A stretch of DNA of 64,000 nucleotides from Candidatus Aenigmatarchaeota archaeon (GTDB taxonomy: Archaea; Aenigmatarchaeota; Aenigmatarchaeia; CG10238-14; SpSt-28): the NCBI GenBank assembly GCA_032249395.1, contig JAVVFY010000003.1:32001-96000 (forward strand). The letters are read 5' to 3'. The position numbers were made by a program. Below, one piece after another: positions 27,001-30,000 of the stretch. Every line of letters starts with the position of its first letter. Position 1 is the stretch's first letter.

Positions 27001-30000
27001 AGTGAAATTATTGAATGGAACTATATTTTCTAAAAGCACGTAAAAATAAAAATATTTATAAAAATGGTTAAAATCAACCATAAAATGGAGGAAAAAGACA
27101 GCACGCGAAGAGGGTTGATTTTGATTTTTGTGTTATAGTAAAAGAGAGGAATTAGGAGAAAGAATTTTGAAGAATTGAAAAAGAAAAAAGATAAACTTGT
27201 TAAAGATATTCTGATAGATGGAATAGAAATAATTTAAGTTCAAAACTTCTCTTCTTCAATTTTTCTAAAGCTATACTTATATGCCAAAAAGAAAACCATT
27301 ATCATAGCAACTAATACCAAACCAAACTTAACATCTATTGGGCTAACTGTTGTTGTTATGGGTAATGGCACAATTTTAGAACTACCAACATTAAGGACTG
27401 ATGGTGCATAAAAGTTTATAACTCCACTACCAACTAAAGTAAAGGGATACACTCCACTTGTCACATTACAAGGAATTGAGGCAACTATTGCTATTGTTTT
27501 TGTTTCGTTAACATCTATGCTTATTTTTTCTGGATATCTTATCCATTTTGCTGCTTCTCCTATGACGCTCAAGCTAATATCTCCTTTTGTCCCTCCTATG
27601 TTACTTACAGAAGCAAATATAATATTGTCATTGCATGCTTTAACATCATAAATTTCTTTAATGTTAATAACTGGTACTTCTTTTTTAGTCAAACAAACTC
27701 CATACTTGCAACCATAAGGACAATAATCTAAAATTCTATAACCAACGCTTCCGTCTGATTCTCTCACTTTTACAATCACATAATTTCCTTCGCAAGTTTT
27801 TTCGATAATTTGAAAGCTATTCGCTAAAGCTACTTCAAACATTAGCAACGCTATCGCAATTAACAAAATTTTTTTGTTCATGATTAATTATTGAAGCGAA
27901 AAGCTTAAATATCTTTACTAACTAGTGACTAAGGAGTAAACCATTCTATTTCATAATATTTGTGTTCTGAACCAGGCAATTCTATTCTATTAGCCAAATA
28001 ATATGTTACGCTTGTTTCCCTATCGTTTATAGCAATTAGCAATCTTAGTCCAAGCTCGTCAGCTCTATCCAAAGCGCTAGCAAGCATCTTCCCGCTTAAA
28101 CTTTCATCTTCATTAAGAGAAATTATTAGAAAAGAAGGATCGTCTTTTTTTGGTTTCTCAACTTGATTCCCAGCTTTTCTGTGCCACGCAACAAAATCTA
28201 TCGGAGTTCTCTCTTTTAAATAGTCTTCCTTCTTCATTCCTGGAATTGCCATTATAAAAGTTTTTCTCACGCTATGAGCTACTCTAATTGCTCTTGACCA
28301 TTCGCTCATTGGCATGCTAATTTCTTTTGGAAACACGTGAATGACATGCTTAGAATGTTGCCATTCTTTTTTTGTTCCAACCGGCTTTGCTCCGGGAAAA
28401 TAAATTCTAAAATGAGTTCCAAATTTAAAACCAGTTTTCAAAATAAAACCTTTATCTCTCCAATCCTCGTAAACTTCTAGCATTCTAGATGCAAAAGGTA
28501 TCCTTTGTTCAACTTCTTTTAGTACCTCTTCGAAGCTCATTTTTTTGTTAGAAGATACATCTATCACTTCTACTCCCTTTTTTGAAAGATATAAAGTTTC
28601 AATAGCATCCAAAGTTAAACAATTCCCTCTTTCAATATTCTTATAAACACCCCATTGACCAAACCAGTAATCCTCAAAAAATTTTCTTGCTTCTCTTCCA
28701 AAAGCTAAAGAATAACATTCTTCTCTCATGAAAAATATCTGAAAATTTATTTGAAGGGAAATTTTATTTGAAGGATATTTTTTGATTGGACTCTTCCCAA
28801 AGTTTTTCATTGTAATCCTTTCAGGAAATGTTATAAAAAGTCCTCTATCTTTCCAATCTCTAAACACATTATACCTAACAAAGAAATGGTTAGAATAAAA
28901 TCTTTGAAAAATAGTTGAAAGAGAAACTTCCTTATTACCTTCAAAAACGCTAGCCTTTCTTATGTTAGCAAGGTAAAAAACTTCTATGGGATGTAAGTAG
29001 ATTTTATTTCCTTTCACCTCTCCAATAAAACTTTCCTCTAGTTCTTTGTTTTGAGAAAATGCTTTACCATCTTCAAAATAAATCCTTATCTCCTCTCTCT
29101 CAAACTTCATTTTATATCCCTTAATACGCAATCTATTGGCATATCTATCATAATTTTACACAAAAGATCTATTGTTTGATTTAAAGTGGGGTTTTTTATT
29201 TCTCTAGAACCTTTTAAGCTCTCTATTTTTAAATAGTCTTCATTAGATTGATTTTCTACTAGATATACTTTATAGTTTATTGTTAAGTTATCTAGATAAG
29301 ACCTTATTTCACTATTTGGAGAAGTGTAGTTTAAATAAATTATAGTATAGCCTTGAGATATTGCCAAAATTCTTTGGTTTTCACTGAGAAAAGAAATTTT
29401 CCTTTCCTTAGGTAGTTCTTGATCTTTATTAGTTGGGGTATAATATCCTTGTATAAATGCATATGCAAAGCTAGATAGAACCATCACAAATATAAGTAAA
29501 TATCCTATTGTTTTCTTATCAACTTTCATAAAAGACTCTTTTTCAACAAAATTAAAAATTATAACTTCATCAATTTATATGGTATTAGAAAGTTTAGTTT
29601 CTATAAAAGAAGGAATAAGAAATCCTTGGAAAGTCTTCTACCTTTCTTCAGTAGTTTCTTTAGTTTCTTTTGTAATTTCTTTCATCATATTCAAGCAAGA
29701 TGTTGGGTTATATGCAGTAATACTAACTACATTGGGATTAACTCCATTCATGACAAAGCTAAATATTTATGAAGCAAAGAAAAGTGAAGTCAAAAGAAGT
29801 ATGGACATTGAAAATATGCTGTTTTACTACGCAAAAGATAAGGGTTCTATATTAAAATTAGCTATAATATCATTCTTACCATTTTTAATAGCAGCCTTTA
29901 TTCTAAATAATCTACAAAGCTTAATAATTTTGATATCTCTATACATTGGAATTTTCTTAATTTTTTCTCTAATTTTCTTCTCAATTTACAAAGAGATTAT

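What a model noticed while it worked through the whole genome (the two positions that open the first line are those of the whole stretch)
27929..29110. Two splicing endonucleases: an ARMAN-type epsilon2 enzyme plus an alpha enzyme lacking the catalytic lysine
g00319 (393 aa) is a three-unit epsilon2 endonuclease with the ARMAN loop lysine and an intact Tyr-His-Lys triad, a type reported only from Micrarchaeota. The genome also keeps a one-unit alpha enzyme (C2:53629-54189) in which the triad lysine is Ala; this change is lineage-wide, even where it is the only endonuclease found, and goes with an invariant loop lysine (G-P-K) before the catalytic His.
Evidence so far: Full-length match to ARMAN-2 4fz2, E 3e-89; epsilon type in 19 of 19 family genomes, both genes in 7 of 9 genus genomes. 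Alignment to M. jannaschii 1a79 puts Ala at the triad Lys; 24 of 24 alpha rows printed have Ala or Thr there and keep GPK. About 400-aa epsilon-like ORFs also in several other families of the phylum.
(Added by a program. Inside this text positions count along the whole contig: contig position 32,001 is position 1 of the stretch shown here. "Call 12" and the like, gene names such as g00115 and contig names such as C1 are that model's own, and its searches are not shown. The text may have been shortened before it was handed on; [...] marks where a part breaks off. The agent that wrote the report below was given it as the finding of a first reader that could run no searches.)

Follow-up and report, generated by a model that had tools for sequence, protein, structure and literature searches.

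The report
Splicing enzyme lacking its catalytic lysine
This tiny archaeon carries two unrelated intron-cutting enzymes: a three-part type so far described only in another archaeal phylum, and a one-part type that has lost a lysine thought essential for cutting, yet is the only such enzyme found in many intron-rich relatives and so very probably works with a rebuilt active site.

Summary
Confirmed and extended. Window 27929-29110(-) is an epsilon2 splicing endonuclease (full-length to ARMAN-2 4fz2, TM 0.88; ARMAN-loop Tyr-Lys and Tyr-His-Lys triad intact) in an Aenigmatarchaeote. The second gene (contig C2) is a one-unit alpha enzyme with Ala at the triad Lys. Of 301 phylum genomes, 45 show both, 51 epsilon only, 190 the alpha type only. 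All 71 alpha units read lack the triad Lys and carry Lys five residues before the catalytic His (G-x-K; Pro is not invariant). Five genomes in 1-5 contigs show no other endonuclease; the three examined are full of tRNA introns and have 16S insertions. Where alpha duplicated, the Lys-less copy keeps Tyr/His and the sister decays to a beta subunit. The Lys-less form also marks Nanohaloarchaeota (120 of 120, including a cultivated species) and some Diapherotrites-labelled proteins. So it is very probably active (about 0.85); the loop Lys is the best substitute (about 0.5), adjacent Arg162 the rival. No activity is shown. The scan noted the missing residue before in another Aenigmarchaeote (e1-1487857). 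Not found in the papers searched.

The parts
27929..29110 (-). epsilon2-type RNA-splicing endonuclease gene (EndA/VSEN), 393 aa plus stop
28826..29110 (-). alphaN unit, about residues 1-95 (boundary approximate)
   Evidence: alignment to 4fz2; secondary structure
28238..28750 (-). catalytic alpha unit, about residues 121-291 (boundary approximate)
   Evidence: PF02778 139-196, PF01974 209-290
27932..28201 (-). betaC structural unit, about residues 304-393 (boundary approximate)
   Evidence: second weak PF01974 match
28640..28645 (-). ARMAN-specific loop Tyr156-Lys157 (ARMAN-2 Y160-K161)
28400..28402 (-). triad Tyr237 (ARMAN-2 Y236)
28355..28357 (-). triad His252 (ARMAN-2 H251)
28262..28264 (-). 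triad Lys283 (ARMAN-2 K282), intact in epsilon
28283..28285 (-). Arg276, bulge-stacking residue (ARMAN-2 R275)
27941..27943 (-). Trp390, bulge-stacking residue (ARMAN-2 W384)
29107..29529 (-). 140-aa upstream ORF, no Pfam match; its stop overlaps the epsilon start by 4 nt (probable co-translation); neighbour kept only in the genus
33486..33597 (+). tRNA-Arg(UCU) gene with introns at 8/9 (11 nt) and 37/38 (26 nt): an example substrate in the window. The alpha gene itself lies outside the window (G000 C2:53629-54189, -)

Best explanation
The genome encodes two independent, working bulge-helix-bulge endonucleases. (1) The window gene is an epsilon2 homodimer that cuts as ARMAN-2 does: Tyr237 activates the 2'-OH, His252 protonates the leaving group, Lys283 holds the transition state, and loop Lys157 fixes the bulge. 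Sequence and fold are shown; activity is inferred from family. (2) The C2 gene makes an alpha4-like homotetramer that still cuts although the triad Lys is Ala. Loss of the residue is shown; activity is inferred from genomics (about 0.85). Its positive charge is most likely supplied by Lys127, five residues before His132 in the same loop, with Thr133 and Ile161 repacking the vacated space (inferred, about 0.5). The Lys-less alpha is the phylum's usual enzyme. Epsilon came in once, early, and the two are largely interchangeable: lineages keep one, the other or both. The confidence figure is for the whole statement including the Lys127 step.
For: Sole enzyme: an alpha profile and both Pfam models at E<=10 find one place each in G114 and G267 (1 contig), G105 (2), G045 (3) and G023 (5); the enzymes of G114, G105 and G045 have Ala at the triad Lys. 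Demand: in loci picked for over-long tRNAs, 21 of 25 (G045), 5 of 5 (G114) and 10 of 11 (G105) parsed tRNAs need intron removal, many outside 37/38; a 4-bp helix in BHB register in 15 of 27 single-intron genes against 3.0 expected; 16S genes span 2289, 2178 and about 3280 nt against a 1478-position model. Subfunctionalisation: 17 beta genes near a Lys-less alpha lose the His and keep the acidic L10 loop, while the alpha keeps Tyr, His, Arg and the loop Lys; none of those families had an epsilon match; betas form one branch (100/98) nested among Lys-less alphas. Selection beside epsilon: pN 0.03-0.14 against pS 0.30-0.80 in 21 pairs, like epsilon. Substitute: after thinning at 85% identity, Lys/Arg at His-5 in 98% of 55 long-loop and 89% of 18 short-loop Lys-less units, against 10% of 107 fused and 14% of 59 epsilon units; 71 of 71 in phylum loci; 119 of 120 nanohaloarchaeal proteins. 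Fold intact: pLDDT 93.6, best match 1a79 Z 22.3, rmsd 2.1 A over 170. Four copies score 0.72, best of 3 controls 0.00, runs agree in at least 77% of contacts, partner pLDDT at least 83; the mark was reached by 20 of 30 solved pairs and 1 of 23 single chains, and the pass may reflect likeness to 1a79. Interchange: 45 both, 51 epsilon only, 190 alpha only, 15 neither, of 301.
Against: No activity or RNA data. K282A abolishes ARMAN-2 activity, while its L3-loop K241A and K244A mutants stay active (PMC3488258, passages and section 13). The model tools gave no coordinates, so whether Lys127 reaches the scissile phosphate is untested. Lys/Arg at His-5 also occurs in 57% of 30 single-unit enzymes that keep the triad Lys, so it may be only an RNA-binding residue. 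A few Lys-less proteins lack it (P0101 Thr; P0148 Asn with Lys at -6; one nanohaloarchaeal Asp). The correlation rests on one or two loss events: one branch (97) with all columns, two groups once the trait columns are dropped, one origin in only 8% of bootstrap trees. The five genomes are 79-92% complete and the genome search has a loose first look, so a divergent gene could be missed.
Confidence: 0.55

Rival explanations
1. The alpha enzyme is active, but the charge comes from Arg162 (the residue just before the lost Lys), from several basic residues together, or from a divalent metal; Lys127 only grips the RNA, like the ASL/CSL lysines that widen specificity.
For: Arg at triad-1 in 100% of 55 long-loop Lys-less units against 57-59% elsewhere. 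The equivalent TSEN34 R285 lines the active site (PMC10539383, passages). ARMAN-2 L3 lysines are dispensable (PMC3488258). Metal rescue of an A. fulgidus K287E mutant is recalled (Calvin et al. 2008), not read here.
Against: Triad-1 is variable in short-loop Lys-less units (Lys 50%, Arg 22%, others), whereas His-5 stays basic in both groups. No acidic residue appears at the triad position (Ala, Thr, Ser).
Confidence: 0.3
2. Where both genes are kept they divide the work, for example epsilon on relaxed or rRNA introns and alpha on others, rather than being redundant. This can hold together with the best explanation.
For: Both genes are kept in f15 11 of 11, f28 8 of 8, f10 3 of 3 and 7 of 9 of this genus, both under purifying selection. 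This genome has about 20 intron tRNAs and a 23S gene 700 nt over model length.
Against: Alpha-only genomes hold D-loop, stem, variable-loop and double introns and 16S insertions; epsilon-only genomes also hold many over-long tRNAs. The sister genus g2 has epsilon alone in 7 of 7. Each enzyme alone seems to suffice.
Confidence: 0.3
3. The Lys-less alpha is catalytically dead (a structural or RNA-binding protein) and another, unfound enzyme does the cutting.
For: The triad Lys is essential in ARMAN-2 (PMC3488258) and called conserved in all four types (PMC6379350 part 2). Genomes are incomplete.
Against: 190 of 301 genomes show only this type, with epsilon not found in 58 of 58 f3 and 34 of 34 f16 genomes. 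Tyr, His and Arg are invariant in 95 of 95, whereas true beta copies lose the His. Introns of 12-48 nt are too short to self-splice (general knowledge).
Confidence: 0.08
4. The epsilon gene is a recent transfer or a contaminating Micrarchaeota piece in this bin.
For: Epsilon is patchy: 96 of 301 genomes, in 9 of 35 families.
Against: It lies among housekeeping genes on a 105-kb contig, has 73-87% identical relatives in 8 Aenigmatarchaeota records with the same neighbours, and all 41 phylum proteins in the tree fall on one side of a branch (SH-aLRT 99, with 3 unnamed proteins) apart from 24 proteins named mostly Micrarchaeota.
Confidence: 0.03

Closest known systems
epsilon2 EndA/VSEN of Ca. 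Micrarchaeum acidiphilum ARMAN-2 (PDB 4FZ2, 9W2K; PMC3488258, PMC12397907)
   Same: Three units, ASL Tyr-Lys, Tyr-His-Lys triad, Arg/Trp pair, about 40% identity, TM 0.88.
   Different: Host phylum is Aenigmatarchaeota; the phylum's epsilon proteins form their own branch; it coexists with a second endonuclease.
alpha4 EndA of Methanocaldococcus jannaschii (PDB 1A79)
   Same: One unit, same fold (Z 22.3), beta9 and L10 contacts in the predicted tetramer, Tyr and His kept.
   Different: Triad Lys is Ala; 6-residue basic insert before His; sole enzyme in genomes with many non-canonical introns.
L3-loop alpha4 EndAs of DPANN and Hadesarchaea (Kaneta et al. 2018, PMC5829648)
   Same: Insert between catalytic Tyr and His, linked to disrupted tRNA genes. 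That study included Nanohaloarchaea SG9, whose protein P0390 is Lys-less here.
   Different: The sections and supplement passages read do not mention loss of the triad Lys; Fig. 7 itself was not seen.
(alpha-beta)2 EndAs of Crenarchaea, Nanoarchaeum and Methanopyrus; alpha'2 of Archaeoglobus
   Same: Relatives in the phylum have beta-alpha gene pairs (17 betas read) and, in f9, a two-unit fusion.
   Different: These forms branch inside the Lys-less alpha group, so they look independently re-evolved; crenarchaeal betas were not in the tree.

Membership tests
epsilon2 EndA (window gene) | alphaN-alpha-betaC three-unit chain of about 390 aa | tested here: met
epsilon2 EndA (window gene) | ASL with Tyr-Lys (Y160/K161) | tested here: met
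   Y156/K157, invariant in 73 of 73
epsilon2 EndA (window gene) | Tyr-His-Lys triad and Arg/Trp stacking pair | tested here: met
   Y237, H252, K283, R276, W390
epsilon2 EndA (window gene) | homodimer | not tested
epsilon2 EndA (window gene) | cuts strict and relaxed BHB | not testable with these tools
   needs an assay
canonical alpha4 EndA (C2 gene) | single unit with N- and C-domains, EndA fold | tested here: met
canonical alpha4 EndA (C2 gene) | beta9-beta9 and L10-pocket assembly of identical chains | tested here: met
   predicted only: residues 177-186 pair, 171-175 touch 30-31, 42-44, 105; 0.72 against 0.00; may be likeness to 1a79
canonical alpha4 EndA (C2 gene) | Tyr-His-Lys triad | tested here: not met
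   Ala163 at the Lys; hence filed as alpha4-like variant, not canonical member
L3-loop DPANN EndA (C2 gene) | basic insert between catalytic Tyr and His | tested here: met
   15 residues against 9 in 1a79
beta (structural) subunit (C2 gene) | loss of catalytic His/Tyr and need of an alpha partner | tested here: not met
   Tyr116 and His132 invariant in 95 of 95; no partner found in five genomes

The most novel reading that the evidence does not exclude
A large DPANN group of splicing endonucleases (most Aenigmatarchaeota, Nanohaloarchaeota, some Diapherotrites-labelled proteins) has moved its transition-state lysine from the helix to the His loop, a natural rewiring of a triad held to be universal from archaea to human TSEN. 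Inside Aenigmatarchaeota this enzyme re-evolved the (alpha-beta)2 and fused forms, and it shares the cell with epsilon2 in about one genome in seven, so one phylum holds all four architectures.
Probability: 0.45. Interest if true: 0.85.

Novelty: new variant of a known kind. Interest (0 to 1): 0.72.

Why it matters
The Tyr-His-Lys triad is described as conserved in every splicing endonuclease, and the Lys-to-Ala mutant of ARMAN-2 is dead. A natural, widespread Ala form that apparently must work gives a direct test of what the Lys does and why loop lysines are needed, a question PMC6379350 lists as open. It also changes the evolutionary map: epsilon2 is not confined to Micrarchaeota, two complete endonucleases can coexist, and subunit splitting and fusion recurred. 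A cultivated nanohaloarchaeon with a closed genome carries the Lys-less form, so the test is practical.

Tried and rejected
RNA evidence: no RNA holder was listed for the window gene. Geometry: neither folding tool returns coordinates, so no distance to the active site could be measured. First intron parser gave no scores and was replaced by a cloverleaf scorer, which mis-placed some introns in this genome (C12 Ser, C6 Tyr and three C6 Leu genes read by eye as 37/38, two with a second intron at 30/31). The BHB test is partly circular, since its 27 genes came. Single origin of Lys loss: not upheld without the trait columns (bootstrap unsettled, LG+G4, 28 of 111 rows dropped for time). 'The GPK insert is required': rejected by short-loop Lys-less proteins. 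'Alpha does canonical, epsilon non-canonical introns': not supported. RNA editing of the Ala codon: rejected, as Ala, Thr and Ser all occur. Conserved gene context for epsilon: only within the genus. The sigma-70 promoter scan does not suit archaea (16 sites against 11.8 expected). Literature searches that found no report of the Lys-less form, of epsilon2 in Aenigmatarchaeota or of two complete enzymes: (open-licence library only; one search returned unrelated papers).

Full report
1. Observation. The window ORF at 27929-29110 (-) gives 393 aa. It matches ARMAN-2 EndA (4fz2/9w2k) over residues 24-393 at E 2.9e-89, and its AlphaFold2 model (pLDDT 92.5) superposes on 4fz2_A with TM 0.88. The residues named in PMC3488258 and PMC12397907 are all present: Y156/K157 (ARMAN loop), Y237, H252, K283, R276, W390; all are invariant in a 73-row epsilon alignment. 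A Pfam search of the genome finds one other endonuclease gene, C2:53629-54189, 186 aa. Aligned to M. jannaschii 1a79 it keeps Tyr116 and His132, has six extra residues between them, and has Ala163 at the triad Lys. RtcB ligase is present. The closest relatives are titled Aenigmatarchaeota (8 of 8 records).

2. Distribution. In 301 genomes drawn from the phylum, epsilon (E<=1e-35) is found in 96 and the alpha type (profile, E<=1e-50) in 235. Crossing the lists gives 45 with both, 51 epsilon only, 190 alpha type only and 15 neither at these thresholds. The genomes are about 72-98% complete, so single absences mean little, but whole families agree: epsilon was not found in f3 (0 of 58), f16 (0 of 34) or f2 (0 of 19), and alpha was not found in f14 (0 of 23). 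In the own family epsilon is in 19 of 19; both genes are in 7 of 9 genus genomes; genus g2 shows epsilon alone in 7 of 7. In an unrooted quick tree of 96 epsilon proteins, the 41 from the phylum plus 3 unnamed ones lie on one side of a branch (SH-aLRT 99), apart from 24 proteins named mostly Micrarchaeota. That fits one early gain or shared inheritance followed by losses; the direction is not shown.

3. The missing lysine. All 71 distinct alpha units read from phylum loci lack it (68 Ala, 3 Ser) and all have Lys five residues before the His: GPK 63, GKK 5, GQK 3. These loci favour high-scoring matches and are a subset of the 235. The trait is wider than the phylum. The 120 best relatives of a nanohaloarchaeal protein all lack the Lys and 119 have Lys at His-5; they include SG9 and Ca. 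Nanosalina sp. VS9-1, and the cluster of one holds the protein of the cultivated Ca. Nanohalovita haloferacivicina, also Ala, whose closed genome has 4 intron tRNAs of 38 (PMC10266531, passage). I could not search that genome for a second enzyme. A second group, with members labelled Diapherotrites and Micrarchaeota by their sources, has Thr at the triad position and no insert, yet mostly Lys or Arg at His-5. After thinning at 85% identity, His-5 is basic in 98% of 55 long-loop and 89% of 18 short-loop Lys-less units, 57% of 30 single units that keep the Lys, 10% of 107 fused and 14% of 59 epsilon units. His+1 becomes Thr (100% and 72%; Ala or Ser elsewhere) and triad-2 becomes Ile or Leu (Val in all others). 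These are few independent events: one branch with all columns (97), two groups and only 8% bootstrap for one origin once loop and triad columns are dropped.

4. Is the Lys-less alpha active? Three lines say yes; none is an assay. (a) In five genomes of 1-5 contigs (79-92% complete), three profiles at E<=10 find only this gene. In the three examined, loci chosen for over-long tRNAs hold introns in 21 of 25, 5 of 5 and 10 of 11 parsed genes, in G045 14 of them with an intron outside 37/38 by my reading. Choosing introns by cloverleaf score alone, 15 of 27 show a full 4-bp helix in BHB register against 3.0 expected, with some circularity in gene choice. Their 16S genes carry 700-1800 extra nucleotides. 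(b) In eight families without an epsilon match, alpha has a neighbour copy that lost the His and kept the acidic L10 loop, while the Lys-less copy keeps Tyr, His, Arg and the loop Lys and has an eroded L10 (17 betas). This is the classical split into catalytic and structural subunits, and it names the Lys-less copy as the catalytic one. Betas are one branch (100/98) inside the Lys-less alphas. Family f9 has a two-unit fusion whose C-terminal unit is Lys-less. (c) Beside epsilon, alpha is as constrained as epsilon (pN 0.03-0.14, pS 0.30-0.80, 21 pairs). The fold is intact. A four-copy model scores 0.72 against 0.00 for the best of 3 controls, with at least 77% contact agreement and partner pLDDT at least 83, through the beta9 and L10 contacts; 20 of 30 solved pairs and 1 of 23 single chains reached this mark, and it may pass by likeness to 1a79.

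5. Mechanism. Epsilon: as ARMAN-2, inferred from family. Alpha: Tyr116 and His132 as base and acid, Arg156 and probably Arg183 (aligned with ARMAN-2 W384 by position) stacking the first bulge base. For the lost charge the best candidate is Lys127, in the loop that carries the His and is described as close to the triad (PMC3488258 section 13); a basic residue was already common there before the loss, which offers a path. Against it, ARMAN-2 K241A and K244A in that loop stay active, though that enzyme keeps K282, and no distance could be measured. The rival is Arg162, 100% in the long-loop group and equivalent to TSEN34 R285 at the active site (PMC10539383, passages), but variable in the short-loop group. 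Metal rescue is a third option (recalled from Calvin et al. 2008; not read). Why both genes persist is open. This genome has about 20 intron tRNAs, mostly at 37/38 (partly re-read by eye), and a 23S gene about 700 nt over length, but each enzyme alone serves intron-rich relatives, so broad redundancy is likelier than a strict split.

6. Known and new. Papers seen: PMC5829648 (abstract, sections 16 and 17, passages, supplement passages; Fig. 7 not seen), PMC12397907 (parts 1, 3, 4, 5 of 7; Fig. S6 legend), PMC3488258 (passages, section 13), PMC6379350 (parts 1-2 of 4), passages of PMC7714728, PMC10266531, PMC10485636, PMC10539383 and PMC3973291. They place epsilon2 only in Micrarchaeota, describe the L3 loop in DPANN alpha4 enzymes, and call the triad conserved in all types. 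None of the text read reports the Lys loss, epsilon2 in Aenigmatarchaeota or two complete enzymes in one genome (searches). Subscription papers, figure images and alignments in supplements that I could not see may show the residue.

7. Verdict. The window gene is a new member of the epsilon2 family in a new phylum. The partner is a new variant: it works like alpha4 by fold, assembly and genomic need, but fails the triad test. Odds: epsilon active 0.93; alpha active 0.85; Lys127 the substitute 0.5. Interest 0.72.

Noticed in passing
G000 C2:54231-54316 (L001) and alpha loci L005-L188: An intron-bearing tRNA-Arg(GCG) gene ends 41 nt before the alpha start on the same strand. ARAGORN called a tRNA in 38 of 84 alpha loci (partly redundant; often called Phe-GAA, mostly upstream) against 6 of 47 epsilon loci. 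If co-transcribed, the enzyme could cut its own message.
   Followed up: partly
L073-L086, L113-L136 (families f8, f11, f18, f23-f26, f29): [quoted passage not shown]
   Followed up: yes
L077 (G033, family f9), P0004: Acidic two-unit fusion, about 360-390 aa, with a Lys-less catalytic unit: an independent alpha'2-like form.
   Followed up: partly
P0039, P0083 (unnamed proteins): Long loop with Arg at His-5 and the triad Lys intact: possible model of the state before the loss.
   Followed up: partly
G114, G105, G300: Rfam tRNA search finds only 12, 21 and 8 matches in genomes of 1-2 contigs, hinting at heavily disrupted tRNA sets.
   Followed up: partly
window 21689-22576 (-): Free-standing ORF with a helix-turn-helix and LAGLIDADG domains, about 400 nt from tRNA-Gly(CCC).
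   Followed up: no
G000 C2:48314-48387 and 50607-50681: Two near-identical tRNA-Pro(UGG) genes 2.3 kb apart, the second with changed 3' acceptor bases: possibly the ends of an integrated element.
   Followed up: no
G000 tRNA introns at 37/38 (C1, C2, C4, C5, C6, C9, C12): Many introns end in the same purine run (GAAGAA) and several carry a TGA...ATGA pattern, in line with earlier notes on guide-like introns.
   Followed up: no
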